64,000 nucleotides of DNA, taken from NCBI GenBank assembly GCA_016186145.1, contig JACPMF010000006.1, positions 1,906 through 65,905 of the forward strand, in the 5' to 3' direction. The translations under genes and the position numbers were made by a program. Positions 1,758-14,655 of the stretch are shown piece after piece. Within the stretch, counting starts at the first letter, position 1. Every line of letters begins with the position of its first letter. This DNA comes from Candidatus Sungiibacteriota bacterium (GTDB lineage: Bacteria; Patescibacteriota; Minisyncoccia; Sungbacterales; SURF-37). The notes beneath the pieces were generated by a model that was given only the letters and a program-made list of their open reading frames with translations, did not search any database and was not told where the DNA came from.

Positions 1758-2963
1758 ATGAATAATCAAGTGCTTTATCGGAAACATCGCCCGAAAAGTT
1801 TTGAGGAAGTGGTCGGGCAGGGGCATGTTGTTCTCCCGATCACAAATGCCATACGCATGGATAAAATCGCCCACGCGTATTTATTTTCGGGACCCCGTGG
1901 AACCGGAAAAACTACCATTGCCCGGCTCATTGCAAAAGCCGCGAATTGCGCCAATTTGTCCAAAATTTCTGAAGGAAATTTTGTTGACAAATTGAGCGTC
2001 CGCCGACCTGTCCGCCAAAGCTTTAGCGTCGGCGGAAGCCTTGGCGAAGGCGGATTATCCATACCTTGTAACTCATGCGATCCGTGCGTTCAATTCAACG
2101 AAGGGAAATCTTTTGACGTTATTGAGATTGACGCGGCATCAAACACCGGTGTTGATGATATGCGCGAGCTTCGCGAGGCAGTACGGTTCGTGCCGGCCGG
2201 CGGTAATAAAAAAACCTACATTATTGACGAAGTGCATATGCTTTCCAAAGGCGCGTTTAACGCTCTTTTGAAAACGCTTGAGGAGCCGCCGGAGCATGCA
2301 ATCTTTGTTCTTGCCACAACAGAGCTTGAAAAAGTGCCGGCAACGATTGTCTCCCGTACCCAGCATTACGAATTTCGGAGGCCGTCAATGACGGACATAG
2401 TGAGGCGCCTCAAGACCGTTGCCGAACTTGAAAAAGTCGCGCTTGAAAGTCAGGCCGCCCAAACAATTGCTTTTGTGGCGGAAGGTTCTTTGCGGGATGC
2501 CGAAAGCATTCTTGGAAAAATTCTTGCGGTGGAAAACAAGAAGATTACCGAGGAGGAAATTAACGAAACTCTCGGAATTCCGCGGCGGATTCTGCTTCGT
2601 GAAATGGTTACGGCGGCCGCCGCGAAAGACCGGAAACGGCTGCTTGAGTTGGCGAGCGAACTTACCGCCGGCGGTTATGATTACTCTTACGCCGTAAAAA
2701 TGCTTATTCAATATTTCCGAAACATGCTGTTGCTGAAAATAGATCCATCGTTTGTCGAACTCGCTCGGCAAGAAATGCCCGAAGAAGATATCGCATTTAT
2801 TCGGGAACAAGGCGGGCGTTTTTCGGATCTGCGAGTTAAAAACGCGCTTGCTTCGCTTATTGACGCTATGGCGAACTTTAAAAAATCCCCAATCCCGCAA
2901 CTTCCCCTTGAACTTGCGCTTCTTGAGATTGTTGAAGAGGGCAAGGGCAACGAACAGCCATGA
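1758..2963 (+). CDS. dnaX: DNA polymerase III subunit gamma/tau
   Basis: Walker A GPRGTGKTT, DEVHML and the clamp-loader sensor region are present. A ~35 aa insert sits in the Zn module. Confidence 0.9.
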   Translation: MNNQVLYRKHRPKSFEEVVGQGHVVLPITNAIRMDKIAHAYLFSGPRGTGKTTIARLIAKAANCANLSKISEGNFVDKLSVRRPVRQSFSVGGSLGEGGLSIPCNSCDPCVQFNEGKSFDVIEIDAASNTGVDDMRELREAVRFVPAGGNKKTYIIDEVHMLSKGAFNALLKTLEEPPEHAIFVLATTELEKVPATIVSRTQHYEFRRPSMTDIVRRLKTVAELEKVALESQAAQTIAFVAEGSLRDAESILGKILAVENKKITEEEINETLGIPRRILLREMVTAAAAKDRKRLLELASELTAGGYDYSYAVKMLIQYFRNMLLLKIDPSFVELARQEMPEEDIAFIREQGGRFSDLRVKNALASLIDAMANFKKSPIPQLPLELALLEIVEEGKGNEQP

Positions 2964-3448
2964 AGTTATATCTGATACGCCATGGAGAAAGCGAGTCAAA
3001 CGCCTCCGGATATTATTTGGGGAAGGACTCCAAGCTTTCAATCGCAGGCCGCACGCAAGCGCGCAAACTTGCGCGGCGATTTGTTAAAATCCCCATTAAT
3101 CTTGTTGTAGCGAGTGATTATCGGCGGGCAATCAGCACCGCCGAGATTATCGGGAGGGTAAAAAAGAAAAAAGTTGTCATTATTCCTTTTCTTGGCGAAG
3201 AAAGATACCCGACGGAATTTGAGCGAAAGCACACCAATGACCCTGAAGTTGCGCGAATGCGGCGGATTTTACGGAAGAATAGAAACAAAAAGGGATGGCA
3301 TTATTCCGACGAAGAAAATTTCTTTGATTTGAAACTGCGGATACAGAAATTTTTAAAGGTTTTAGGCCGGCGGAAGGAAAAAAGTATTCTTGCGGTGGGG
3401 CACGGCATATCTAATCGGATGATTGTCGGACTTATGCTGTTTGGGTGA
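2960..3448 (+). CDS. histidine phosphatase (phosphoglycerate-mutase-like) family protein
   Basis: RHGESESN catalytic motif at the N-terminus. The start ATG overlaps the dnaX stop codon (ATGA). Confidence 0.75.
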   Translation: MKLYLIRHGESESNASGYYLGKDSKLSIAGRTQARKLARRFVKIPINLVVASDYRRAISTAEIIGRVKKKKVVIIPFLGEERYPTEFERKHTNDPEVARMRRILRKNRNKKGWHYSDEENFFDLKLRIQKFLKVLGRRKEKSILAVGHGISNRMIVGLMLFG

Positions 3449-3588
3449 AAGCTCACGCGGACATATTCCAAAGACTCCGTCGCGGGCTTTTAACCAGAAA
3501 TACCGGTATTACGATGTGCGAGTTTGAAGACGGCCAATGGCGCATTCATACATGGAATGACCACGCGCATCTCGGATAAATCGATAAT

Positions 3589-3659
3589 TGGGGGATCGTC
3601 TAATGGTAGGACACTGCCCTTTGAAGGCAGGTATCGGGGTTCGAGTCCCTGTCCCCCAG
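3589..3659 (+). tRNA. tRNA-Gln (anticodon UUG)
   Basis: Full cloverleaf drawn by hand. Acceptor TGGGGGA/TCCCCCA, anticodon loop CTTTGAA, T-loop TTCGAGT. CCA is not encoded. Confidence 0.8.
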
Positions 3660-3730
3660 GATTAGAGGGAAGTATCGAGTGACCAGGACGGGTCGTAAAA
3701 GACCCCCCCTATGGCTGATGCTTTCCTTAG

Positions 3731-3803
3731 CTCGTCACCATCACGTCATACCGGCTGAGTGCCGTATCCAAAACGAAAGATCGCCTCCCAAGGCGGTTTT
3801 TCG
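3731..3803 (+). repeat. R1 repeat copy A (ctcgtcacca..gtcataccggctgagtgccgtat.caaaacgaaa plus terminator hairpin)
   Basis: Near-identical to 14911-14987. The hairpin CGCCT-CCCA-AGGCG is followed by a T-run. Confidence 0.8.
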
Positions 3804-3871
3804 TTAGAAATACCTTTAGTATACATATGTATACTTGACTTTTCTATTATAATAGATTATACTGCTTATAT

Positions 3872-6367
3872 ATGGCAATCAATAAAGCAGAATTTATTAC
3901 TGTGGCTGAAATGGCCAAAATGCTTGGGGTTACCCGAGCGGCAATAAACAAGCAAATTTCAGAGAAAAAGATCCCTGCTGAGAAGGTCGGGCGTAATTAC
4001 CTAATCCCCAAAACGGCCCTTCCGGCTGGGCTTGAGGAGCGTATTCGGACTGAGCAAAAGAAAGCCACCGATACGGTTATCAAGAAAAGCCATCATCACG
4101 ATCTCGATTTTGAGAAAGAACTGTGGGCGGCGGCAGACAAGCTTCGCGGCAATATTGATGTCTCCGAATACAAAAACATAGTCCTCGGACTCCTCTTCTT
4201 AAAATATATCTCTGACGCTTTTTACAAACGACGTGAAGAACTCGCGGGTTTTACTCGTGATTCGAAGAATGAGGATTTTTATGTGAAAGACGATAAGGCT
4301 CGCGCCCAAGTTCTTGAGACCAAAGATTTCTATAAGAGTGTTGGTGTGTTCTATGTACCAGAGAAATCTCGCTGGGAATATTTGCAGACAAAGACGATGC
4401 AGTCCGATATCGGGCAAGCGCTCGATAAGGCAATGGATCTTATCGAAGAGGACAACCGCGCCGAGCTTGAGGGGGTTCTCCCTAAAATTTATACTCGCAC
4501 AACCTTGGATCATGCTGTAATTGGCGAACTCGTAAATATATTTTCTCGCATTTCATTCAATCACGACTTTGACAGGGAGAAAGACATACTCGGCCGCATT
4601 TACGAATATTTCCTTGGTCAATTTGCTTCTTCTGAAGGCAAGCGTGGTGGTGAATTTTTTACTGCACGATCGATTGTTAATTTACTGGTAGAGATTCTTG
4701 AGCCATATGAAAATGCGCGGGTTCTTGATCCGGCCTGCGGAAGCGGCGGCATGTTTGTTTCTATGGGTGAATATCTGCGAAAACACGGGCAAGATCCATC
4801 GAAGCTTGCTGTCAATGGCCAAGAGAGTAACCAAACAACACTTCGTCTTGCAAAAATGAATCTCGCGATCCGTGGACTCTCTGGGAAAATTGAGCTTGGG
4901 AATAGTTATTACCAAGACAAGTTTCCCCACCTGCAAGCCGACTTCGTAATCGCCAATCCTCCGTTTAATGCAGAATGGGAACCGTCAAAACTTGCCGACA
5001 ACGATCCTCGCATGACACTAGGAGCCCCCCCAGGCAGTAACGCCAACTTTATGTGGATTCAACACTTCGCGCACCATTTAGCGCCAAATGGTCAGGCTGG
5101 GTTCGTTATGCCAAATGGAGCACTGGCAGTTTCTGGTAGAGAGGGTGATCTTCGTCAGAAATTGATCGAAGCGGATCTTGTCGACGCAATAATCACCTGC
5201 CCTTCAAAGCTTTTCTATAACGTCACTCTTCCAGTATCTCTCTGGTTCCTTTCGAAAAATAAATCCGGAGACCGTTTCCGTAGTCGCTCTGGCGAGATCC
5301 TATTTGTGGACGCTAGGGATACATTCGAGCAAATTTCTCGTAAGCAAGTTGTTTTCAACCCTACGCAAATCCAGAAAATTGCAAACACTGTTCGAGCATG
5401 GCGCGGAGAAAAGAGGTATGGCGAATACAAGGATGTCCCGGGTTTTTGTAAATCTGTTGATGTTAATAGAGTAAAAAAGAATCACTATATCTTGAGTCCA
5501 GAAAAATATGTTGATTCCGTTGTGATCCAGGGAGATGGGATATCATTCAAAAATGATCTTGAAAATACATCCAAGTTTTTAAAACAGCAGACAATAAAAT
5601 ATAAAGAGTTCGATCATAAAATATCCACCAGTCTAAATGAATTTTACCCGAGCTCTGATTGGAATAATATAAACTATTCATCGACAAGTGTTTTAGAAAG
5701 CCTAGCTTCTAAAATATTTGACGAGTGGTTTAATCGTTACCATATTCCTGGACGTAAAAAACTGAAGTTGGTTGAGCAGGATGATAAATTAATTCCGGAA
5801 GAATGGGGCGTAAAAAAGTTGGACGAAGTGGTGGATATTTCTATTGGACGAACTCCACCGAGGGAGCAGTATGAGTGGTTTTCTAGAAATGCAGAGGATA
5901 TAAAATGGATCTCCATAAAAGATCTCGGCACCAGTGGTGCATTTATACTTGACACCGAAGAGCGTCTAACAAGAGCAGCGGTTCAAAAATTTAATATTTC
6001 AATTATTCCAAAAAATACCGTTATCGTTAGTTTTAAACTCACGGTGGGACGTGTTGCGATTACGACGGAGAACATGTTGTCGAATGAGGCTATAGCGCAC
6101 CTGAAAACAAAAAAACAGCCACACATTCCATTCCAGTACCTCTATTTACTCATGAAAAAATATAATTATGCCTCTCTCGCTAGTACTTCTTCCATTGCAA
6201 ACGCCGTAAACTCAAAGACTATAAAAAATATTGAGATCGCAATTCCTGACCCTCAAACCCTGAGTCTTTTCGAGAAGATCATGACGCCTATCTTTGAAAA
6301 GATTTACGCGCTGCAGACAGAAGAAAGGGAGTTAAAAAAACTGAGGAATCAGCTATCGGTCAACTAA
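3872..6367 (+). CDS. hsdM: type I RM methyltransferase fused to a single-TRD specificity subunit, with an N-terminal HTH
   Basis: Excisionase-like HTH (AEMAKMLGVTRAAINKQI). HsdM N-domain, motif I LDPACGSGGMF and motif IV NPPFN. The C-terminal ~230 aa is an HsdS target-recognition domain. Confidence 0.85.
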   Translation: MAINKAEFITVAEMAKMLGVTRAAINKQISEKKIPAEKVGRNYLIPKTALPAGLEERIRTEQKKATDTVIKKSHHHDLDFEKELWAAADKLRGNIDVSEYKNIVLGLLFLKYISDAFYKRREELAGFTRDSKNEDFYVKDDKARAQVLETKDFYKSVGVFYVPEKSRWEYLQTKTMQSDIGQALDKAMDLIEEDNRAELEGVLPKIYTRTTLDHAVIGELVNIFSRISFNHDFDREKDILGRIYEYFLGQFASSEGKRGGEFFTARSIVNLLVEILEPYENARVLDPACGSGGMFVSMGEYLRKHGQDPSKLAVNGQESNQTTLRLAKMNLAIRGLSGKIELGNSYYQDKFPHLQADFVIANPPFNAEWEPSKLADNDPRMTLGAPPGSNANFMWIQHFAHHLAPNGQAGFVMPNGALAVSGREGDLRQKLIEADLVDAIITCPSKLFYNVTLPVSLWFLSKNKSGDRFRSRSGEILFVDARDTFEQISRKQVVFNPTQIQKIANTVRAWRGEKRYGEYKDVPGFCKSVDVNRVKKNHYILSPEKYVDSVVIQGDGISFKNDLENTSKFLKQQTIKYKEFDHKISTSLNEFYPSSDWNNINYSSTSVLESLASKIFDEWFNRYHIPGRKKLKLVEQDDKLIPEEWGVKKLDEVVDISIGRTPPREQYEWFSRNAEDIKWISIKDLGTSGAFILDTEERLTRAAVQKFNISIIPKNTVIVSFKLTVGRVAITTENMLSNEAIAHLKTKKQPHIPFQYLYLLMKKYNYASLASTSSIANAVNSKTIKNIEIAIPDPQTLSLFEKIMTPIFEKIYALQTEERELKKLRNQLSVN

Positions 6368-6371
6368 AATC

Positions 6372-9300
6372 ATGAACCCACTCAACGAAAATAATCTAAC
6401 AGAGCAATCACTCATTGAATGGCTTCAAGCTCAGGGTTATGAGTATGTTTATGGTCCAGCAATTGCTCCGGGACAACCTAGCGCAGAGCGTGAGGATTTT
6501 CGTGGTGTTGTACTTAAAAATCGTTTGCTTTCTGGTGTCCGTCGTTTCAATCCCCAGCTTCCAGCTGAACAAGCAGAACAAGTCGTGGATGATATCGCCG
6601 GATATCATAATGCTGACCTCGTTCTTGGCAACAAAGAAATGTTCACCCTCCTTACCGAGGGGGCGAAGAAGACGTGGCGAGAAAAGGGTGAGGAAAAGAC
6701 CGAAGTCGTGAAGTTGATTGACTTCACAAATGTGGACGCGAACGAATTCTTGATCGTCAACCAGTTTACAATCCAGGGTATCGAGAACGTTTGCCGCCTC
6801 GATGGCGTTGTTTTTGTAAACGGTCTTCCTCTTGGAGTCCTTGAACTCAAGAGTCCCGTACGTGAGGAAGCGACGATCGGTCAGGCGTACCGCGACATAG
6901 AATATTACAAAAGGGAAATACCGAGAATCTTCTTCTATAACCAAGTCCTTTGCTTATCTGACCTTACAGAAGCACGTCATGGAACGATATCTTCATCATG
7001 GGAGCGATATAGCGCGTGGAAAGGAATTGAATCAGAAACGGATGCACCTAAAGGAGCGGCGGAGCTTGAGGTTCTTGCTAGGGGTCTTTTTAACAAGGCG
7101 CGGCTTCTCGATGTAATTCAGAACTTTACGGTTTTTGAGGCCGACGGAGATGGTGACGCGGTGACGTACACAAAAAAATCTGCTTTGTACCATCAGTACT
7201 ACGGCGTAAATAAGACGATTCAAAGCACTGTGCATTCAGTGCTTGGAGAGCGGGAAAGAAAAATTGGTGTTTTCTGGCACACGCAGGGTTCGGGTAAGTC
7301 ACTCTCAATGGTTTTCTATGTGAATAAAACAAAGAGCATATCAGAGCTTAAAAGTCCCGCTTATGTATTTCTTAATGACCGCGAGGATCTCGACGACGCG
7401 CTATTTAAAACATTTAGTCGTACTGGGTATGGCACGCTCGCAAAACGCGCTTCGAGCATAAAAGATTTGAAAGATCGACTTTCCCACTTGGGAAGTGAAC
7501 TGATATTTACAACCATTCAGAAATTCCAAGAAGATCCTGACGCGAACGCCGTTCTCTCGGAAAGAGAAAATATTATTGTGCTTACTGATGAAGCACACCG
7601 CACGCAATACAGCATGCTTGCGGGTAATGTGCGACAGGCATTACCAAACGCGAGCTTTTTGGGCGTGACCGGAACTCCAATTTCACGGCATAATCGCAAC
7701 ACCATGCGTGTTTTTGGTGATGTAATAAGCGCATATAAGATTGGCCAGGCAGTAAAAGATAAAGCAACCGTCCCTATTTACTACGAGGGCCGTCTTGTTC
7801 CTCTCCATCTGGCTGATCAATTTGTTGATAGCAAACTCGACGAAATTCTTGGAGAAATTATCGTCGATGAAAAAGCAAAAGCCCGTAAAGAATGGGCCGT
7901 CCTTGAGGAGGTTGTAGGCGCGCCAAGCCGTATTGATCAAATATCAAAAGATATCGTTACTCATTTCAATAACCGTCCCATCGAGGGCAAAGCAATGGTA
8001 GTTACAATGAGTCGTCCTATCGCCGTCGCTATGTATCAAGCAATCAAAAAGATTTCCGGTACTCCAGAGTGCGCAGTGGTAATTTCCAAAATGGAGGACT
8101 TCCCGGGACAAATTCAAACTGAGCACGATGTGAAAAAACTCGAGAAGCGGTTTAAAAAGACGAATGACCCACTTCGTTTGGTTGTCGTCTGCGATATGTG
8201 GCTTACCGGATTTGATGTGCCGAGCATGCACACAATGTATCTCGATAAACCCCTTAAGAACCATGGGCTCATGCAAGCCATTGCTCGCGTGAACCGCGTC
8301 TACAAAGATAAGCCGGGTGGTTTAATTGTGGACTATATCGGTATTGCCGAACACTTAAAGAAAGCCTTGGCTATTTATGACTCTGATGTCCAAAAGGAAG
8401 CAATGATTCCTCTCGATGAAGTAATTAGTGAGATGAGAAAATTGCACGGAGAAATTTCTCGCTACTTTACGAATATCGACTTTTCTGGTTGGAGACAAAA
8501 GAAAGGCGTTGAACTGGTCAATCTCTTCCAGTCGGCAATGAATGAAGTTATCTCAGAGAATGGCCGGCTTTCTGATGATCGAAAAATGGCTTATATGGGT
8601 GGAGTTTCCAAACTTTCCCAGCTCCATGCCCTCGTCATGCCCGCAGAGGCGGCGATGAAGATTATAACCGATGTTCAATTCTTCCAGTCAATCCGCGAAG
8701 CAATCAACAAACAGACAGTGGTGCCGCATATTATCTTTCCCGAAGCAAAAGAGAGTGCCATCCGCAGCCTTATACAAGACGCGGTGCAAGCAGAAGGCGT
8801 AATTGACCTATTTACCAAAGAAGGCGAAGAGAAAAAAAGCATCTCCATCTTTGATAGTCGATTCGCAGAAGAAATAAAGAAGGTTAAATACCAAAATCTT
8901 GCCATTGATACGGTTCGCAAAATGCTTGATCAAGAAATAAAGGTACGCTCTCGTACAAACAAGGCGCGCTATGAAACGATGCTTACGCTTTTAACCGAAC
9001 TAATTGAGAAATACGAGAATAATGTTATTAGTTCGGCAGAGATCATTAAGCATCTACTCGAGATTGCCGACGAGATAAAGAAACTGGACGAAGAGAGCGA
9101 GGAACTCGGACTTTCCGAAGAGGAGATCGTCTTTTATGACACTCTTGCAGCCGATCCAGATCTCAAAGAAGCAGGGATTGATATCAAAGAATTCGTAAAG
9201 GAACTTACAAAACGTATTCGGCGCGACTTGGCTATTGATTGGACCAATAACGAAACTATCAAAGCGCGCATTCGCCAAAATGTTCGGTTGCTTTTGCTCC

Positions 9301-9401
9301 AGAAGGGCTTCGTCGAGCAGATGCAAACAGAACGACTAATAGAGTCGATATATCAGGAGACGGTGAGGGTGTACCGGGAATACTTACCAGTACCAGCGTA
9401 A
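6372..9401 (+). CDS. hsdR: type I restriction enzyme R subunit
   Basis: Walker A TQGSGKS and DEAH box LTDEAH. Length 1009 aa. Starts 5 nt after hsdM-S. Confidence 0.9.
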   Translation: MNPLNENNLTEQSLIEWLQAQGYEYVYGPAIAPGQPSAEREDFRGVVLKNRLLSGVRRFNPQLPAEQAEQVVDDIAGYHNADLVLGNKEMFTLLTEGAKKTWREKGEEKTEVVKLIDFTNVDANEFLIVNQFTIQGIENVCRLDGVVFVNGLPLGVLELKSPVREEATIGQAYRDIEYYKREIPRIFFYNQVLCLSDLTEARHGTISSSWERYSAWKGIESETDAPKGAAELEVLARGLFNKARLLDVIQNFTVFEADGDGDAVTYTKKSALYHQYYGVNKTIQSTVHSVLGERERKIGVFWHTQGSGKSLSMVFYVNKTKSISELKSPAYVFLNDREDLDDALFKTFSRTGYGTLAKRASSIKDLKDRLSHLGSELIFTTIQKFQEDPDANAVLSERENIIVLTDEAHRTQYSMLAGNVRQALPNASFLGVTGTPISRHNRNTMRVFGDVISAYKIGQAVKDKATVPIYYEGRLVPLHLADQFVDSKLDEILGEIIVDEKAKARKEWAVLEEVVGAPSRIDQISKDIVTHFNNRPIEGKAMVVTMSRPIAVAMYQAIKKISGTPECAVVISKMEDFPGQIQTEHDVKKLEKRFKKTNDPLRLVVVCDMWLTGFDVPSMHTMYLDKPLKNHGLMQAIARVNRVYKDKPGGLIVDYIGIAEHLKKALAIYDSDVQKEAMIPLDEVISEMRKLHGEISRYFTNIDFSGWRQKKGVELVNLFQSAMNEVISENGRLSDDRKMAYMGGVSKLSQLHALVMPAEAAMKIITDVQFFQSIREAINKQTVVPHIIFPEAKESAIRSLIQDAVQAEGVIDLFTKEGEEKKSISIFDSRFAEEIKKVKYQNLAIDTVRKMLDQEIKVRSRTNKARYETMLTLLTELIEKYENNVISSAEIIKHLLEIADEIKKLDEESEELGLSEEEIVFYDTLAADPDLKEAGIDIKEFVKELTKRIRRDLAIDWTNNETIKARIRQNVRLLLLQKGFVEQMQTERLIESIYQETVRVYREYLPVPA

Positions 9402-9405
9402 TTTT

Positions 9406-11961
9406 ATGGACAGTCGTATACCATTTGTAAAAGAAGTCGCCAAGGTCATCATTGAACGCCATGAAAAAGAGGGCGGCTCCTTTATTTTTGGTATATCCGG
9501 CAAGTGGGGTGAGGGTAAAACAACTTTTCTGGACGAATTGAAAAAAGTATTGGAAAAAGATAATTCATCATTCAAAGTTGTGGATATAAATCCATGGAAA
9601 TTTTCCGTCGACAGAATTTCTTTTTTGAGAAACTTCCTGCGAACTTTGCACGGAAAATGTGATTTGGGGGGTGACGATGATTTAAAACAGTTAGATGTTG
9701 ATACGTCAAAAAATGCAATCGATTGGGGACGATTTTTAAAATTTGTCGTATTGTTTGGAGTCATTTGTTGGGCTTTTACTTATGCCCCTCTTTTTAATTT
9801 TATAATTGGCCTTCCTGCGCAATGGCAATTTTTTCTAACCGTTTTGTTGCTCCCAATTGTCTTAGCAGCCGTTCAAGGCGTAGTAACTGTCCAAAAGACA
9901 GATCACGCTATAGTTACTTTAGACAAATTTGATGATCTACTTAAAAAAATATTAAAGAATTTTGAGATGGCGGGAAAGAAGATCATTGTTTTTGTCGATG
10001 ATTTGGACCGTGTAACTCCCGAAATGGCGAGAGATGTTCTCGATAATCTGCGGACGTTCTTTGATAAAAAAGAAATGACCTTCGTCGTAACAGGAGACCA
10101 TACAGTACTCGAAGGACATCTCGGGAGAAGTCTTCTTCCCGACGAAGAATCTTCTGCTGCTCAGCTAGAAGAAGGACGTAGATTTATGAAGAAAATCTTT
10201 AATGTTTATTGGCGACTTCCACTCCCAATCAAAAAGGGGATCCAAGACTTTATTGGAGGTGAGTTCAAAAAGAGGGACTCAGGGTTGAAAGAAGTGTTCT
10301 CTGAAGAGAGCCAGAAAATTACCTTCGCTACATATCTGGAGAAATATTTTGAAAGTAATTTCAGGCAAATAATCAGATTTTTAGACACTGTTCTTTTTAA
10401 TTTTCAAATCATAAAACAAAAAGCTGAAGGCGAAGACACACAAGCTCCTTACTTCAAGGATATGCTGACCAATCCGCTGCTTGTGATACGTATTCTTATA
10501 ATCCAAGAGTTGTGCGCCCCTCTTTTCGACAAAATGGTTAGAGATGTTTCCATTTTGCAGGGGCTTGAATACGCAGTCGAGAAAAAGGATTCTTCTAAAA
10601 CAACTGAGATCCTAGGACAAGGCAAGGATACGCTTTCTCCTAGTCAACGAGCTTTTATAGAAAAGTTTATTTATGAGGAACCACGTTTTTACAAAGGATC
10701 TCGCCTACAGGTCTTAAACCTTCAGCCCTATCTATCGTTAGCTGCTGACGTAAGCTTCGGCGATCAGCGTGGTCCGTCCAGCGAAGACTTTATTACGGCA
10801 CTTAACGGAGGAGATCCCAAGGGAGTAAAAAATGATCTCCTTTCAATGGGAGATGCAAAAGCAGAGGAGGGCGCAACTGCTTTGGTAACCCAGCTACCCC
10901 CCATGATTGATGTTACTCAAAAATTGGGCGCAATAAAAACACTTCTTGTCGCCTTGTCTGATTCACCCACCGAATTAACCATACATAAAATATTTGCTGA
11001 TCAATTAAGCAAGCTTGATTACCATTTTGTAAATAATGCTGCGTCTAATCTAAAAATGGAAGTTTTAAACCTTCTCTTTGGTTGGCTCGACCTGATTTCA
11101 GACCCCACTGTGATAAGTGCGTTTGAAAGTAAATTTACTCTGAAGGATATTACTGAATTTAATGCTGTAAATATTGAAGGAGCAGGTTCTTTCAAAAGTT
11201 TGGTTTTGGCGAAATGGATTAAGGAGTATTACTCTAAGCAAAAACCCGATGCCATAAACGCTATGGTTGCACACTTTCCAAAACTAAAAATTGAGAAAGT
11301 GAGGGAGCAAATGGATACTATTGATAAAATCTTGGTTACTGACCTTATTGGAGACTCCAACGCACTGTTAAGGGAGAACCGCTTTGCTTTGTTGAGAAAC
11401 TATACAACTAAAGGGGCTGAGATGCTCAAAGAAAATGTTCTGAACCAAGTTTCTGGTTTTGATCAAGGAATTACTGCGTGGGCTATCGCAAAAGCAAATG
11501 AGGAAAAAGCTCTGTGGACGATAGGTGAGCTTGAGACAAAAATCCTAGAAAAAATTGAGATTTCGGCGGACTTCAATGCCCTTAATCAGGGATTAAGGTT
11601 TGCTTTAACCAATAAAGTTGGATCCCCAGAGATGATTTGGCCCAAGCTTCTTCCTAAACACCAGAAAAGTATTCTTGAAAATTTACCAGCAATTATTGAT
11701 GACGCTTCACTTCAACCGATTTCACCACCACAAGCTTATGCAAATCAACTTATGGATGCAGTAGTAGCAAAAATTAAGACCATTCCGGAGGCTGACCAAG
11801 CCCGCTGGCTTAGTTATATAGTTAAAGGTAAATGGCCTTGGATTAATCTGGCTAAATACCCTATTACCAGTAAGTTTAGAAATATGAAGAAGTCTAAAAA
11901 CGAAGATCTTAAGAAGAATTTTGCAATTACTGAAGAAAGCTGGGTAGAGAAAAATGATTGA
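9406..11961 (+). CDS. KAP-family P-loop NTPase
   Basis: Walker A GKWGEGKTT and Walker B IIVFVDDLDR. Two TM helices inserted between them are the KAP hallmark. Starts 4 nt after hsdR. Confidence 0.8.
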   Translation: MDSRIPFVKEVAKVIIERHEKEGGSFIFGISGKWGEGKTTFLDELKKVLEKDNSSFKVVDINPWKFSVDRISFLRNFLRTLHGKCDLGGDDDLKQLDVDTSKNAIDWGRFLKFVVLFGVICWAFTYAPLFNFIIGLPAQWQFFLTVLLLPIVLAAVQGVVTVQKTDHAIVTLDKFDDLLKKILKNFEMAGKKIIVFVDDLDRVTPEMARDVLDNLRTFFDKKEMTFVVTGDHTVLEGHLGRSLLPDEESSAAQLEEGRRFMKKIFNVYWRLPLPIKKGIQDFIGGEFKKRDSGLKEVFSEESQKITFATYLEKYFESNFRQIIRFLDTVLFNFQIIKQKAEGEDTQAPYFKDMLTNPLLVIRILIIQELCAPLFDKMVRDVSILQGLEYAVEKKDSSKTTEILGQGKDTLSPSQRAFIEKFIYEEPRFYKGSRLQVLNLQPYLSLAADVSFGDQRGPSSEDFITALNGGDPKGVKNDLLSMGDAKAEEGATALVTQLPPMIDVTQKLGAIKTLLVALSDSPTELTIHKIFADQLSKLDYHFVNNAASNLKMEVLNLLFGWLDLISDPTVISAFESKFTLKDITEFNAVNIEGAGSFKSLVLAKWIKEYYSKQKPDAINAMVAHFPKLKIEKVREQMDTIDKILVTDLIGDSNALLRENRFALLRNYTTKGAEMLKENVLNQVSGFDQGITAWAIAKANEEKALWTIGELETKILEKIEISADFNALNQGLRFALTNKVGSPEMIWPKLLPKHQKSILENLPAIIDDASLQPISPPQAYANQLMDAVVAKIKTIPEADQARWLSYIVKGKWPWINLAKYPITSKFRNMKKSKNEDLKKNFAITEESWVEKND

Positions 11962-12084
11962 GTGGTCTATATCATAGCTGGAGGTTAATGAGCGATGGGG
12001 TAAGCTATCGACTAGGCATATTAAGCGGCCGGTTCCATGGTTCGTTACGAAAGAGAAGAGGATTTAATTAAACTGGTTACGTAG

Positions 12085-13488
12085 ATGTTTACGAGTGAGA
12101 ATTTTAAAAAAGTTGCTGATCTTGTCTATAAAGATTACTACAAATATCTCTTTAAGCACGCCGTATCTTTATTGCGACGTTCGAGACTTCCGTATCTTAG
12201 AAGGAATAATCTTTGGATAGGTGGAATTCAGCAAAACATGGTTAAATATAGACTCGGATTTGAAGAAACGGTCAGAAAGGGTAAGTCGATGGTCCCAAAA
12301 GACGACAAGGAGAAAAAAGCATTAGATATTGCACTGAGATCAAATAAAGAATTCCTCCGTGTCTTGAAGGATATTGGTGATGGTATTGCCTGGAGAAATC
12401 TAGACTATAGACGCTCATTAATTCGACTTATGTCGGAACATGCACCGACTGGCGATATTGGTCCGGATGCAGAGCGACTTATTTTGCTTTTAGGCGCTAG
12501 GAAAAAAGTAAGCGACCGAGTGATAATCAACGATTTGACCCACTGTCTAAAGATCGCCGATTTAACAGTTATCACATCAAAAAGTAGAATCTTTATTTAT
12601 GAAGTAAAGGCGCGAAAAGATAAGACCGAGATTATAGGTATATCAGAAATTTCAAGACGTATCCAAAAATATGGACAGGCAAGAAAGCAGGCTATTTCGC
12701 ACTGGATAGTTCAAGACGCTTTTATAAATAAAAAAGTTAAGACCCCCAAACTTGAAATAAGAATCGTAGATTTAGACTTTGTTTTTCACACTCACATCAG
12801 TAAGGTAAATCAATTGATTAAAGAGTCGGATAACAAGAACTTCTCCAACGCATTATTGGAAGGGGGATACCACATAGAAATTTGTGCGTTGGACAAGGTT
12901 TTTGAGAAATCAGGTCAGGAAAAAATTAAGGAACAATTGAATAAACTCAAGCCCTTTAATCCCCATAAAGAAGGGTGGTCCGATATGACACTTTGCATCT
13001 CAAACTATGATACCTTTTATTCGAGCATCAACGACAGATTTACGAATTTTACGCCGTATTCGGTTCTACCATTATCTGCTCGAAACTGCGTTAGGTTAAC
13101 GATGGGGCAACTTTATATTCGTATCTGCTTCGATTTTATGAAGTTAAAACAGAAATTCGAAGAAGCTGGATGGAGTGTCGAGGTTAAAGACTGGACATCA
13201 TGGGAATCTCAAAACAAGGAAACCATCAGAAAAATTAGGGAGGGTAAGGGTGGTTTCTTAGAGCATTCAGTTAATGAGTATATATTCAAAATTTCTAAAC
13301 AAGGCGAGAACGGTAGGTATACCCAGGATTTTCCGGTAAATCTAGTGATCATTATGCTCTCGGCTTTTTATACAACGGACTATCTCATTGGTATGGCCGA
13401 GGCTGTTTATCAAGATGCAAAATTAAACAGCCGAGGTGGTGGTTTATCAACGTTTAATTGTCTATATGAACGATGTATTTTAAGATGA
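12085..13488 (+). CDS. hypothetical protein with a PD-(D/E)XK-like nuclease motif
   Basis: 467 aa with low GC. LKIADLTVITSKSRIFIYEVKARKD fits the D...ExK core. Confidence 0.5.
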   Translation: MFTSENFKKVADLVYKDYYKYLFKHAVSLLRRSRLPYLRRNNLWIGGIQQNMVKYRLGFEETVRKGKSMVPKDDKEKKALDIALRSNKEFLRVLKDIGDGIAWRNLDYRRSLIRLMSEHAPTGDIGPDAERLILLLGARKKVSDRVIINDLTHCLKIADLTVITSKSRIFIYEVKARKDKTEIIGISEISRRIQKYGQARKQAISHWIVQDAFINKKVKTPKLEIRIVDLDFVFHTHISKVNQLIKESDNKNFSNALLEGGYHIEICALDKVFEKSGQEKIKEQLNKLKPFNPHKEGWSDMTLCISNYDTFYSSINDRFTNFTPYSVLPLSARNCVRLTMGQLYIRICFDFMKLKQKFEEAGWSVEVKDWTSWESQNKETIRKIREGKGGFLEHSVNEYIFKISKQGENGRYTQDFPVNLVIIMLSAFYTTDYLIGMAEAVYQDAKLNSRGGGLSTFNCLYERCILR

Positions 13489-13581
13489 TCCCTGCTCGCG
13501 GCGAACGCTGGTCCTATTCAGAATCAGAGGATTCGACAGCCGGCTGGCGTAGAGCATTGAACTGTAATTGAATAAAATCAT

Positions 13582-14235
13582 ATGCTAGACGCTGAAACAT
13601 TCAAAAAGTTTACAAGGCAAGCCAACCTTTCTCATCAGCAGTTTTGTGTTTGGTTCGCATTTAACAATGAGTATGCCAAACACCAGGATCGTTGGAACAA
13701 ATTTTATCCCGAAAGTTACTTTGCACCGGAAGATTTTGATAAGACGAAAGGATGTAAGTATAAAAACTTCTGGGGTGTAACTTTGGCCTCAACGCAGCAC
13801 GGCTGGATTCTGGGAATAGCAAGACTCTTTGATCCCGCATTTCATCCTTTTGATAAAAAACAGGAAAAACCTCGAATCTCTTTCGACTATATTCTTAGAA
13901 GACTTAATGATCAAAACTTGTCAGATAAACTGAGGCAAGAGTTAGATTGGCACAAAAATGTAATTGAATCTGTAAGAAAACATAGGGATAATGTTCTTGC
14001 GCATAACGATGCGAGCTTTGATTATAAAAAAATTGGGCCAGGAATTGAAAATCTTTTTGAATGGTTAGAAGATGTTATTTCAAGAATAAAAAAAACAGAG
14101 CCACACCTTAGTAGTTGTGGTGTAGTGAACGTTAAGTATCACGAGAAATTATCCCAATGTGGCGTAGATGAGGTTTTTGAAACTTTACTGCTTGGGGAAA
14201 AGCATGAGGTAGATGAGTCGAGGAGAACCTCATAA
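13582..14235 (+). CDS. hypothetical HEPN-like (Abi-type) protein
   Basis: 217 aa. RKHRDNVLAH fits the Rx4-6H HEPN motif (AbiD/F-like R..RN..AH). Confidence 0.4.
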   Translation: MLDAETFKKFTRQANLSHQQFCVWFAFNNEYAKHQDRWNKFYPESYFAPEDFDKTKGCKYKNFWGVTLASTQHGWILGIARLFDPAFHPFDKKQEKPRISFDYILRRLNDQNLSDKLRQELDWHKNVIESVRKHRDNVLAHNDASFDYKKIGPGIENLFEWLEDVISRIKKTEPHLSSCGVVNVKYHEKLSQCGVDEVFETLLLGEKHEVDESRRTS

Positions 14236-14250
14236 AAGCGATGATCATAT

Positions 14251-14655
14251 ATGTTTCCACTGGAAACTAAATCTTACGAAGCAAAATCGCTAGCCGACTC
14301 TTTGCTTGGCAATCCGTATCTCCAAGTTGAGTCCGCAGAACTCCCCGAGAGCGGAGGAGTTTATTTGTTCAGAAATGATGCAAATGAAATAGTATATATA
14401 GGCAAGGCGCGAAATCTAAAGAGAAGAATCCGCATTGACCACTTAAGCCAGGAACTGGGCGATACTATGAGTGCTTTTAGAAGAAGCATTAATAAGGTGC
14501 TTGGAATTCCTTTCGGCCATGAGATGAAAAGCTGGATATGCAGCAATTGCAAAATTTCTTTCATCCAGATAGATGATCCAGATATGCGCAGTTTGGTGGA
14601 GGCGCTTTTAATCGCTGCCGTCAGATCGAAGTCATTGCTCAATCATGATAGTTAG
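14251..14655 (+). CDS. GIY-YIG nuclease domain protein
   Basis: GVYLFRNDANEIVYIGKARNLKRRI. Lies 16 nt downstream of the HEPN-like gene. Confidence 0.7.
   Translation: MFPLETKSYEAKSLADSLLGNPYLQVESAELPESGGVYLFRNDANEIVYIGKARNLKRRIRIDHLSQELGDTMSAFRRSINKVLGIPFGHEMKSWICSNCKISFIQIDDPDMRSLVEALLIAAVRSKSLLNHDS

What the first reader, a model, noticed from the sequence alone, without database searches (positions are those of the whole stretch)
3872..6367. HsdM-HsdS single-TRD fusion with an N-terminal excisionase-type HTH
The 831 aa protein carries four modules in order. The first is a ~55 aa HTH (VAEMAKMLGVTRAAINKQI). The second is the HsdM N-terminal domain. The third is the MTase core with GSGG and NPPF motifs. 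The last is one complete HsdS target-recognition domain (IPEEWGVKKLDEV...EIAIPDP...QTEERELKKLRNQL). A canonical type I system has separate M and S genes, and S has two TRDs. This architecture predicts a palindromic or half-site target and possibly self-regulation through the HTH. hsdR remains separate.
Basis: partly seen in the sequence, partly recalled or inferred. Interest (0 to 1): 0.55.

Follow-up and report, generated by a model that had tools for sequence, protein, structure and literature searches.

The report
Two-gene type I restriction system
This is a real, intact gene that joins a DNA-binding regulator domain, a DNA methylase and half of a DNA-recognition subunit into one protein. 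Together with the neighbouring cutting enzyme it forms a compact anti-phage restriction system, of a kind that has been built in the laboratory and seen once in nature, so it is a modest variant rather than a new system.

Summary
ORF 3872-6367 encodes an intact 831-aa protein with four domains in order: HTH_17 (9-50), HsdM_N (81-224), N6_Mtase (236-549, GSGG and NPPF present) and one HsdS TRD with its conserved helix (about 600-831). A complete hsdR starts 4 nt downstream. The identical ORF was assembled in three other sequencing runs. About 23 of the 120 closest database relatives carry the same fusion, with at least 8 different TRDs. It is therefore not a frameshift artefact.

The most likely mechanism is that two fusion proteins dimerise through their M-tail and CR helices. 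The dimer mimics M2S1, methylates a symmetric bipartite site, and restricts DNA together with HsdR. This matches the engineered 'M½Sfus' / 'Type IMS' enzymes and the natural Vibrio vulnificus M-S½ methyltransferase (PDB 7EEW).

The part I could not find described is the N-terminal HTH. A perfect 18-bp palindrome (3818-3835) abuts the -35 box. Related 18-bp palindromes occur at this position in 20 of 27 related promoters, and their half-sites change with the HTH recognition helix. This points to autoregulation.

Verdict: new variant of a known kind, moderate-to-low interest. The target motif, dimerisation and HTH binding are all inferred, not shown.

The parts
3772..3805 (.). GC-rich hairpin followed by a T run (terminator-like, readable on both strands). 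It separates tRNA-Gln and the upstream genes from the RM operon.
   Evidence: Inverted repeat I1, 15-nt arms, 87% complementary; terminator-like site.
3818..3835 (.). Perfect 18-bp palindrome AGTATACAT|ATGTATACT, the candidate operator for the N-terminal HTH.
   Evidence: It is the only GTATAC-N4-GTATAC site in the 64 kb even with 2 mismatches allowed. The same element sits at the same place in L004, L008, L005, L006, L009, L047 and L048. The 18-bp palindrome class is enriched at HTH-hsdM promoters.
3835..3863 (+). Sigma-70-like promoter: TTGACT, 17-nt spacer, TATACT. The -10 box ends 8 nt before the ATG, so the mRNA would be leaderless or nearly so.
   Evidence: Best promoter-like match in 3400-6600, 10 of 12 positions. 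The -35 and -10 blocks are conserved in the alignment of six relatives. The transcription start is inferred, not measured.
3872..6367 (+). hsdMS fusion gene, 831 aa: HTH, HsdM, half HsdS.
3896..4021 (+). HTH_17 / excisionase-type winged helix-turn-helix (residues 9-50).
   Evidence: Pfam PF12728 at 34 bits and TIGR01764 at 42 bits. The model shows strand-helix-helix-strand-strand.
4112..4543 (+). HsdM N-terminal domain (residues 81-224).
   Evidence: PF12161, E 3.9e-25.
4577..5518 (+). Gamma-class N6-adenine methyltransferase core (residues 236-549). Motif I GSGG lies at 4739-4750 and motif IV NPPF at 4955-4966.
   Evidence: PF02384, E 2.7e-96. PDB 3KHK E 2.9e-105 and EcoR124I HsdM E 5.7e-37.
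5546..5644 (+). HsdM C-terminal 'tail' helix (residues 559-591), homologous to the tail that ends the unfused 593-aa relatives.
   Evidence: Helix in both models, pLDDT 84-96 in the C-terminal model; alignment with unfused relatives.
5660..5791 (+). Fusion junction (residues 597-640): a linker, then a short helix VLESLASKIFDEWFNRYHIPG that matches the last third of the central conserved region (CR1) of canonical HsdS, then the IPEEWGV lead-in to the TRD.
   Evidence: BLASTP to canonical S subunits of relatives starts at their residues ~191-208. PADLOC Specificity_I profiles match from positions 148-177 onward. Alignment.
5792..6250 (+). Single target-recognition domain (residues 641-793), equivalent to TRD2 of a canonical HsdS.
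   Evidence: PF01420. 1YF2 residues 223-411, E 2.4e-33. Foldseek 1YF2 E 9.5e-15. Up to 57% identity to the second TRD of ordinary 2-TRD S subunits.
6251..6364 (+). C-terminal conserved-region (CR) helix, residues 794-831, the expected dimerisation helix.
   Evidence: A 37-residue helix in both models. It aligns to CR2 of canonical S subunits, 8 residues shorter.
6372..9401 (+). hsdR, 1009 aa, complete (nuclease, SF2 motor and C-terminal domains). It starts 4 nt after the hsdMS stop.
   Evidence: HSDR_N, SWI2_SNF2/ResIII, T1R_D3-like and T1RH-like_C domains. TIGR00348 at 575 bits. PADLOC REase_I E 4.6e-246.

Best explanation
This is a compact two-gene type I restriction-modification system (hsdMS plus hsdR) in a Candidatus Sungbacteria (Patescibacteria) genome. 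HsdM is fused through its C-terminal tail helix to half of an HsdS, meaning one TRD plus one conserved helix. Two fusion proteins most likely pair through a bundle of their M-tail and CR helices. That gives a two-fold symmetric (M-S½)2 complex equivalent to the canonical M2S1 methyltransferase. The complex would recognise a symmetric bipartite target and methylate one adenine on each strand. With two HsdR subunits it would translocate and cut unmodified DNA. The N-terminal excisionase-type HTH most likely binds the 18-bp palindrome that abuts the -35 box of its own promoter, so that it sets the expression level of the whole hsdMS-hsdR operon. Repression is more likely than activation.

Shown here: the domain content, the intactness and recurrence of the fusion, the absence of another hsdS or hsdM nearby, and the conserved operator that co-varies with the HTH.

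Inferred: dimerisation, target symmetry, restriction activity, and HTH binding and its sign.
For: - **Domains and motifs.**
- **Not an artefact.** The identical ORF occurs in three other assemblies. About 23 fused relatives are among the top 120 hits.
- **A functional lineage.** Fused relatives have 78-92% identical M cores but TRDs only 11-30% identical, with at least 8 TRD types and three junction types.
- **Self-sufficient pair.** In six loci (window, L008, L046-L049) the fusion is followed by a 1007-1009-aa hsdR. There is no separate hsdS or hsdM within ±7 kb for L046-L049, within the 14.5-kb L008 locus, or within the 64-kb window.
- **Dimerisation elements retained.** The 33-residue M-tail helix and the 37-residue CR helix are both present.
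- **Precedent.** Engineered HsdM-half-HsdS fusions dimerise, methylate the predicted symmetric target and restrict with HsdR (PMC6158711). 'Type IMS' was defined in PMC3510504. Half-S dimers give symmetric sites (PMC3874165). In the natural V. vulnificus fusion, two M-S½ chains recapitulate M2S1 (Seo 2022, as cited in PMC12429846; PDB 7EEW).
- **HTH and operator.** The perfect palindrome 3818-3835 touches the -35 box and is unique in the window. An 18-bp NGT-N12-ACN palindrome with at least 7 of 9 pairs lies within 85 nt upstream in 14 of 27 HTH-hsdM loci, against 11 sites in 377 kb of background (binomial P ~8e-31). With at least 6 of 9 pairs it is 20 of 27. Half-sites change with the recognition helix.
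Against:
- The full-length AlphaFold model is poor in the MTase core (pLDDT ~30).
- The junction carries an extra 17-residue CR1-like helix (605-621) whose place in a homodimer is unclear. By homology it would occupy roughly the position of the partner's CR end.
- The nearly invariant Pro of the GGEFFTP motif is Ala here (A265). One 87%-identical unfused relative, P0006, shares the change, so it is not a sequencing error, but its effect on activity is unknown.
- A generic palindrome test on the promoters is not significant (Fisher P 0.077).
- The strong motif-specific statistic uses a pattern defined after seeing the data, and the loci are phylogenetically related.
- Only 64 kb of the genome was visible, so an orphan hsdS or hsdM elsewhere cannot be excluded.
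Confidence: 0.72

Rival explanations
1. The fusion works as a monomer, like the methylase-TRD part of Type ISP, IIG/IIL or BREX PglX enzymes. It would read a short asymmetric half-site and methylate one strand only, with HsdR recruited one per site.
For: There is only one TRD per chain. The junction carries a second short CR-like helix (605-621) that could fold back on the chain's own CR helix. The monomer model of the C-terminal module is compact, with pTM 0.82. Single-TRD monomeric enzymes exist (PMC6158711 introduction; BpuSI 3S1S appears as a weak fold match).
Against: The full-length M-tail and CR helices that build the four-helix bundle of M2S1 are kept. The closest sequence and fold matches are classical HsdS and HsdM, not Type IIG or ISP enzymes. 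Every tested half-S and M-half-S construct, and the natural V. vulnificus protein, act as dimers (PMC6158711, PMC3874165, PMC12429846). Hemimethylation on one strand with a classical separate HsdR has no known safe solution for self-protection after replication.
Confidence: 0.1
2. The fusion is only one half of a heteromeric enzyme. It pairs with a separately encoded half-S, full S or free HsdM located elsewhere in the genome, giving an asymmetric target.
For: The engineered EcoKI M-S fusion with two TRDs needed extra free HsdM in vitro (PMC3510504). Only 64 kb of the genome could be inspected.
Against: No second hsdS or hsdM exists in the window, within ±7 kb in L046-L049, or in the 14.5-kb L008 locus. 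With one TRD per M, the stoichiometry is already balanced at 2 M to 2 half-S. The fusion-plus-hsdR pair travels as a unit into different genomes.
Confidence: 0.07
3. The fusion is a decaying remnant of a canonical hsdM-hsdS pair that lost TRD1 by deletion and is no longer active.
For: The junction looks like a recombination scar, joining the M tail to the last third of CR1. There is a P265A change in a conserved motif. A neighbouring gene (histidine phosphatase) is frameshifted.
Against: The ORF is long and uninterrupted, the catalytic motifs are intact and hsdR is complete. The same junction class is kept across relatives that have exchanged TRDs and HTH variants, which requires selection on the fused form. 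Promoter and operator are conserved.
Confidence: 0.05
4. The N-terminal HTH is not a transcription regulator. It would be a general DNA anchor, or a partner-binding module, for the methyltransferase.
For: No binding data exist. HTH_17 domains also occur in excisionases and other non-regulatory proteins. The generic palindrome statistic is weak.
Against: An 18-bp palindrome sits at the promoter in 20 of 27 loci, and its sequence changes together with the recognition helix. It is the only such site in 64 kb. Precedents exist for regulators of RM operons: the separately encoded RptR upstream of type I systems (PMC12255303), and, from general knowledge, C proteins and SsoII-type methyltransferases with N-terminal HTH.
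Confidence: 0.15

Closest known systems
Vibrio vulnificus YJ016 'minimal intact' type I methyltransferase (PDB 7EEW; Seo et al. 2022, Int J Biol Macromol 208:381, known here only through its citation in PMC12429846 and the PDB entry title)
   Same: It is a natural single polypeptide of HsdM with a tail helix plus S½ (one TRD and one CR helix) in a type I operon. Two chains assemble into an M2S1-like complex. The domain order is the same as here.
   Different: Sequence similarity is limited to the MTase core (E 2.4e-8). The S½ part matches only weakly by fold (rank 14, E 1.7e-4), so the two are probably independent fusions. The deposited 7EEW construct is 638 aa, shorter than the 831 aa here. 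No match to the HTH region was seen. The window protein keeps an extra CR1-tail helix at the junction.
Engineered 'Type IMS' fusions: EcoKI MSFusion (PMC3510504) and S. aureus CC398-1 M½Sfus (PMC6158711)
   Same: HsdM is fused in frame to HsdS or half-HsdS, with HsdR separate. M½Sfus dimerises, methylates a symmetric bipartite site and restricts with HsdR. This is the mechanism proposed here.
   Different: Those are laboratory constructs that join the M tail directly to TRD1-CR1. The window protein is natural and uses a TRD2-type cassette preceded by the end of CR1. Relatives P0055 and P0117 do have the direct 'engineered-like' junction. The constructs have no HTH.
Canonical type I R-M systems with HTH-HsdM (the ~593-aa unfused relatives in Patescibacteria, DPANN and other MAGs: L004-L044)
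   Same: The M cores are 85-92% identical in the closest unfused relatives (P0006, P0016, P0031, P0035). They share the same HTH, the same promoter and operator layout and the same 1007-1012-aa HsdR.
   Different: They carry a separate 380-430-aa hsdS with two TRDs, often with one or two cargo genes between hsdM and hsdS.
Half-HsdS systems and 'Type 1½' methyltransferases (EcoDXXI ΔN/ΔC, EcoR124I-NT, AhdI-like; PMC3874165, PMC2877798)
   Same: One TRD plus one helix homodimerises to give a symmetric bipartite target.
   Different: In those systems S½ is a separate polypeptide. AhdI-type systems use a type II-like nuclease rather than HsdR.
Transcriptional control of RM operons: RptR upstream of type I systems (PMC12255303); from general knowledge, C proteins and SsoII/Ecl18kI-type methyltransferases with an N-terminal HTH
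   Same: A small DNA-binding module is encoded first in the operon and recognises palindromes overlapping its own promoter.
   Different: RptR and C proteins are separate proteins with other folds. SsoII-type enzymes are C5-cytosine type II methyltransferases with an Xre-like HTH. Here an excisionase/MerR-like HTH_17 is fused to a type I HsdM, and I found no description of this in the searchable literature.

Membership tests
Type I restriction-modification system | HsdM: gamma-class N6-adenine MTase with an HsdM_N domain, motif I (GxGG) and motif IV (NPPF/Y) | tested here: met
   PF12161 E 3.9e-25 and PF02384 E 2.7e-96; GSGG at 290-293 and NPPF at 362-365. PDB HsdM chains down to E 2.9e-105. 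TIGR00497 hsdM scores 155.6 bits, below its strict equivalog cut-off of 242.75.
Type I restriction-modification system | HsdR with an N-terminal nuclease, an SF2 motor and a C-terminal domain, encoded nearby | tested here: met
   ORF 6372-9401: HSDR_N, SWI2_SNF2/ResIII, T1R_D3-like and T1RH-like_C. TIGR00348 at 575 bits against a cut-off of 284.55.
Type I restriction-modification system | Separate HsdS subunit with two TRDs and two conserved helices | tested here: not met
   There is one TRD and one full CR helix, covalently joined to HsdM. No other Methylase_S-like sequence is in the window.
Type I restriction-modification system | ATP-dependent translocation with cleavage far from a bipartite site | not testable with these tools
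   This needs biochemistry.
'Type IMS' / natural M-S½ fusion (7EEW type) | HsdM and a single TRD plus CR helix in one polypeptide, with HsdR separate | tested here: met
'Type IMS' / natural M-S½ fusion (7EEW type) | No additional hsdS or hsdM is needed or encoded alongside | tested here: met
   The window, L046-L049 within ±7 kb and the 14.5-kb L008 locus. The whole genome was not visible.
'Type IMS' / natural M-S½ fusion (7EEW type) | Homodimerisation into an M2(S½)2 complex and a symmetric bipartite target | not testable with these tools
   No multimer prediction or methylome was available. This is inferred from the retained M-tail and CR helices and from published precedent.
'Type IMS' / natural M-S½ fusion (7EEW type) | Common descent with the V. 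vulnificus fusion | tested here: not met
   phmmer matches the MTase core only, E 2.4e-8. There is no sequence hit with residues 547-831 even at E<=10. The fold match is weaker than to ordinary HsdS. The architecture is the same but the fusion event is probably independent.
Type ISP / IIG / IIL single-chain R-M-S enzymes | Nuclease (and motor, for ISP) in the same polypeptide as the MTase and TRD | tested here: not met
   The 831-aa protein has no nuclease or helicase domain. HsdR is a separate gene.
MADS (methylation-associated defence system) MAD1/MAD2 | Match to MAD2 or MAD1 at the family cut-off, with the other mad genes nearby | tested here: not met
   NF047738 scores 66 bits against a cut-off of 720, and NF047737 16 bits against 80. 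PADLOC mad2 E 3e-50 is far weaker than MTase_I at 1e-156, and no mad hits occur in the neighbours.
Self-regulating RM methyltransferases (HTH fused to the MTase) | HTH domain at the N-terminus of the methyltransferase | tested here: met
   HTH_17 and TIGR01764 both score above their cut-offs.
Self-regulating RM methyltransferases (HTH fused to the MTase) | Palindromic operator at its own promoter | tested here: met
   Palindrome 3818-3835 abuts the -35 box. It is conserved and co-varies with the HTH across loci.
Self-regulating RM methyltransferases (HTH fused to the MTase) | Demonstrated binding and change in transcription | not testable with these tools
   This needs EMSA or footprinting and reporter assays.

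The most novel reading that the evidence does not exclude
HTH_17-HsdM proteins, fused to S½ or not, form an undescribed and widespread class of type I methyltransferases that carry their own transcription regulator. The recognition helix and the 18-bp operator co-evolve as matched, mutually orthogonal pairs. In the fused form the regulator, methylase and specificity functions sit in one gene. That gives a self-contained two-gene type I system suited to the tiny genomes of Patescibacteria, in which one TRD cassette swap changes both half-sites at once.
Probability: 0.5. Interest if true: 0.45.

Novelty: new variant of a known kind. Interest (0 to 1): 0.35.

Why it matters
If confirmed, this would be a natural and evolutionarily successful counterpart of the laboratory 'Type IMS' intermediates proposed to link type I, IIB and IIG restriction enzymes. 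It shows that the M-half-S form is stable, recurrent and able to swap TRDs in nature, at least in Patescibacteria and their neighbours. It would also add a built-in transcriptional control to type I systems, whose regulation has mostly been described as post-translational. It offers a set of matched HTH-operator pairs. On the practical side, the system predicts a symmetric methylation motif for this uncultured lineage, and a compact two-gene cassette for engineering. None of this overturns current understanding.

Tried and rejected
- **Assembly or frameshift artefact.** Rejected: the identical ORF is in three other assemblies and there are many fused homologues.
- **MADS membership.** Rejected: scores are far below the cut-offs and no mad neighbours exist.
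- **Integrated element at tRNA-Gln.** No direct repeat of the tRNA 3' end is found in the window, and composition is unremarkable. No claim is made.
- **Phase variation.** The only tandem repeat found in 3400-9500 is a 20-nt one inside hsdR.
- **Other structured RNAs near the promoter.** Rfam finds only tRNAs.
- **Generic palindrome enrichment at promoters.** Results are weak: 7 of 23 loci at p<=0.05 in one test and Fisher P 0.077 in another. I replaced this with a motif-specific test against real background sequence, and its post hoc nature is flagged.
- **Full-length AlphaFold model.** Unusable for the MTase core (pLDDT ~30). Only the C-terminal module model was used.
- **Annotated fused examples on plasmids.** None found. 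All 200 high-coverage matches are separate M and S genes, and the listed top hits lack the HTH.
- **Prevalence of the fusion from the 50%-identity representative library.** The top 150 hits are almost all ordinary two-TRD S subunits. This shows the TRD is a standard cassette but gives no count of fusions.
- **Reading Seo et al. 2022 directly.** The paper is not held.
- **Predicting the target sequence.** Not attempted. No TRD of known specificity was available, and 64 kb is too little for motif-avoidance statistics.
Full report
**1.

- The + strand carries an ATG ORF at 3872..6367 that translates to 831 residues without a stop.
  - HTH_17 at residues 9-50 (34 bits, cut-off 27).
  - HsdM_N at 81-224 (E 3.9e-25).
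  - N6_Mtase at 236-549 (323 bits, E 2.7e-96).
  - Methylase_S at 642-820 (57.9 bits, E 1.9e-15).
- NCBIfam's excisionase-type DNA-binding domain TIGR01764 also passes its cut-off, 42 against 28.8 bits.
- The catalytic motifs are present: DPACGSGGMF (286-295) and NPPF (362-365).
- The next gene, 6372..9401, starts 4 nt after the stop. It is a complete HsdR with HSDR_N, SWI2/SNF2-ResIII, domain 3 and the C-terminal domain, and TIGR00348 scores 575 bits against a cut-off of 284.55.
- By sequence, the MTase part is closest to solved type I M subunits: 3KHK at E 2.9e-105 and EcoR124I HsdM at 5.7e-37. The C-terminal part matches residues 223-411 of the M. jannaschii S subunit 1YF2, which is its second TRD and second conserved helix (E 1.4e-31 and 2.4e-33).

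**2. It is not an assembly or frameshift artefact**

- The exact 831-aa protein is in NCBI as 'N-6 DNA methylase' of a Candidatus Sungbacteria MAG. It is encoded on contigs assembled independently from three further SRA runs.
- Among the 120 best database relatives, about 23 are 770-832 aa and carry the same fusion. The rest are ~593-aa HTH-HsdM proteins without an S part.
M and S are not separable by a frameshift, and the C-terminus is a TRD.

**3. Anatomy of the fusion**

- Canonical relatives were recovered from 42 species-representative genomes. They have a ~595-aa HTH-HsdM, often one or two small cargo genes, a separate 380-430-aa HsdS with two TRDs, and a 1007-1012-aa HsdR.
- Only one of these loci, L008 (Parcubacteria bacterium 21-54-25), is fused like the window.
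- Aligning the window protein with those canonical S subunits shows that homology begins in the last third of their central conserved region. The window's VLESLASKIFDEWFNRYHIPG corresponds to LEQMAQAIFKEWFVKFNFPG. Homology then runs through TRD2 and CR2, ending 8 residues short of the canonical C-terminus.
- Upstream of that segment, the fused protein keeps a full HsdM tail helix homologous to the tail that ends the unfused proteins.
- A model of residues 540-831 is confident (pLDDT 81, pTM 0.82). It shows the M-tail helix at 559-591, a short helix at 605-621, an α/β TRD at 633-791 and a 37-residue CR helix at 794-830.
- That model's best fold matches are HsdS structures, led by 1YF2 at E 9.5e-15.
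- The full-length model is poor in the MTase core because the alignment was shallow. I did not use it for that region.
- The most economical origin is an in-frame recombination between the 3' end of hsdM and the middle of CR1 of a downstream hsdS, deleting TRD1.
- The TRD itself is an ordinary cassette. In a search of 1.84 billion representatives, the best 150 matches were almost all standard two-TRD S subunits that carry it in the second position, at up to 57% identity.

**4. The fusion is a living lineage, not debris**

- Between the window protein and its fused relatives, the MTase core is 78-92% identical. The HTH ranges from 35 to 95%, the tail from 14 to 53%, and the TRD from only 11 to 30%. 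At least eight TRD types are present.
- Three junction types exist:
  - The window's class.
  - A second class with a longer linker (P0041, P0059).
  - A third class in which the M tail runs directly into a TRD1-CR1 half (P0055, P0117), as in the engineered constructs.
- The window's MTase core is closer to an unfused protein (P0006, 92%) than to any fused one. The 'tail plus S½' therefore behaves as an exchangeable module.
- In five further fused loci the gene is followed by a 1007-1009-aa hsdR, directly or, in L046, after a DUF4145 gene. No separate hsdS or hsdM lies within ±7 kb for L046-L049 or within the 14.5-kb L008 locus.
- The 64-kb window contains no other S- or M-like sequence.
- No tandem repeat or other sign of phase variation is present in or near hsdMS.

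**5. How it most likely works**

- With one TRD per M chain, two chains give two M and two half-S. This is the composition of the classical M2S1 methyltransferase.
- Published work supports this directly:
  - Half-HsdS proteins homodimerise and give symmetric bipartite targets (PMC3874165, PMC2877798).
  - An engineered HsdM-half-HsdS fusion ('M½Sfus') dimerised, methylated the predicted symmetric site and restricted phage when HsdR was supplied (PMC6158711).
  - A natural M-S½ fusion from Vibrio vulnificus YJ016 has been crystallised (PDB 7EEW). Two chains recapitulate M2S1, according to Seo et al. 2022 as cited in PMC12429846.
- 7EEW appears among my sequence and fold hits, but only weakly: the MTase core at E 2.4e-8 and the S½ fold at rank 14. 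The window protein therefore shares the architecture but probably arose from an independent fusion.
- I conclude, by inference, that the window encodes an (M-S½)2 plus HsdR enzyme with a palindromic bipartite m6A target.
- The monomer alternative, with an asymmetric half-site, is not excluded but is disfavoured. Both bundle-forming helices are retained, and the closest relatives are classical type I subunits.
- Unresolved points are the role of helix 605-621 in a dimer and the effect of the P265A change in the conserved GGEFFTP motif. One 87%-identical relative shares that change.

**6. The HTH and its probable operator**

- Between the upstream hairpin (3772-3805) and the start codon lies the best promoter-like site of the region. 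It reads TTGACT (3835-3840), a 17-nt spacer, then TATACT (3858-3863), ending 8 nt before the ATG.
- Directly abutting the -35 box is a perfect 18-bp palindrome, AGTATACAT|ATGTATACT, at 3818-3835.
- It is the only GTATAC-N4-GTATAC site in the window even with two mismatches allowed.
- In close relatives the flanking DNA has diverged, but this element, the -35 and the -10 are conserved, in both fused and unfused loci.
- In more distant HTH-hsdM loci a different 18-bp palindrome occupies the same neighbourhood, and its half-site tracks the recognition helix:

| Recognition helix | Palindrome |
|---|---|
| VTRAAINKQ | GTATAC..GTATAC |
| ISRVA(A/T)LK | GGTTATCATATGATAACC |
| ISRVAVFKK | GTTAACATATGTTAAC |
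| (I/V)TRQ.V.K | GGTTGTCA..TGACAACC |

- A generic palindrome test was not convincing (Fisher P 0.077).
- A motif-specific count was. An NGT-N12-ACN 18-mer with at least 7 of 9 palindromic pairs lies within 85 nt upstream in 14 of 27 loci. The remaining 377 kb of the same loci hold 11 such sites (binomial P ~8e-31). With at least 6 of 9 pairs the count is 20 of 27.
- That pattern was defined after looking at the data and the loci are related, so the P value overstates the case. The positional and co-variation evidence is nevertheless strong.
- I infer that the HTH binds this operator, probably as the pair of HTHs in one dimeric complex, and autoregulates the hsdMS-hsdR operon. Because the site touches the -35 box, repression is the likelier sign.
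- Four close relatives also carry a partial second site on the start codon (GGTATACATATG). The window has lost it through a 5-nt difference.
- A separately encoded repressor of type I operons, RptR, has been described (PMC12255303). From general knowledge, C proteins and SsoII-type methyltransferases provide further analogies.
- I found no description of an HTH_17-HsdM fusion in the searchable literature.

**7. Comparison and novelty**

- The system is a type I R-M system in every tested respect except the defining separate two-TRD S subunit.
- It fits the published 'Type IMS' definition and the architecture of the V. vulnificus enzyme.
- It is not Type ISP, IIG or IIL, because the chain contains no nuclease or motor.
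- It is not MADS: NF047738 scores 66 bits against a cut-off of 720.
- The M-S½ fusion is therefore a new member of a known kind.
- The addition of a built-in HTH with a co-varying operator, and the recurrent TRD-swapping fused lineage in Patescibacteria and neighbours, make it a new variant.
- PGAP labels the protein only 'N-6 DNA methylase'.
- Searches of annotated plasmids found only separate M and S genes, and the listed top hits lack the HTH.

**8. Verdict**

The feature is real, well supported and mechanistically interpretable, but it is largely anticipated by earlier work. Interest is 0.35. The decisive experiments are a methylome of the cloned gene, an oligomer-state measurement, and HTH-operator binding and reporter tests.

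Noticed in passing
window 2960-3579: The histidine-phosphatase gene (His_Phos_1, 162-aa ORF ending at 3448) continues in another reading frame to 3579 (…CEFEDGQWRIHTWNDHAHLG*). This suggests a frameshift: either a pseudogene or a sequencing error.
   Followed up: partly
window 3588-3660: tRNA-Gln (TTG) lies 210 nt upstream of the RM operon. No repeat of its 3' end was found elsewhere in the window, so there is no evidence that the defence genes arrived as a tRNA-targeting integrative element.
   Followed up: yes
window 9406-14655: Likely defence genes follow hsdR on the same strand: a KAP-family P-loop NTPase (851 aa, starting 5 nt after hsdR; weak PifA/QatA-like hits), a 467-aa protein with no family hit, an AbiU2-type HEPN protein (217 aa) and a small GIY-YIG nuclease (134 aa).
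   Followed up: partly
L048 12456-14429 (contig carrying P0037, labelled Ca. Wunengus sp. YC60 by NCBI): A KAP NTPase 81% identical to the window's follows hsdR there too. The hsdMS gene of that locus has a 90% identical HTH but a completely different TRD (19% identity). This looks like a TRD swap inside an otherwise shared hsdMS-hsdR-KAP module found in MAGs assigned to different phyla.
   Followed up: partly
L004 ~484-540, L008 ~5901-5940, L005, L006, L009, L048 (upstream of the operator): A conserved block (…GGGATGACGC…CCGAAGGAGTCCAGAG…GAGTTGGTAACT) precedes the operator in several related loci but is absent from the window. Rfam gives no match and its nature is unknown.
   Followed up: partly
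L005-L044 (unfused relatives): One or two small genes (about 160-280 aa) are very often inserted between hsdM and hsdS, or between hsdS and hsdR. An example is DUF4145 in L046. This cargo is typical of type I operons and was not analysed.
   Followed up: no
window residue 265 of the 831-aa protein (nt 4664-4666): The nearly invariant Pro of the GGEFFTP(R)SIV motif is Ala here and in one 87%-identical unfused relative (P0006). The consequence for AdoMet binding or catalysis is unknown.
   Followed up: partly
window 1758-2963: The dnaX (clamp-loader gamma/tau) homologue matches its family profiles in two stretches, with a gap at about residues 64-100. This suggests an insertion near the Walker A region. 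It was not examined.
   Followed up: no
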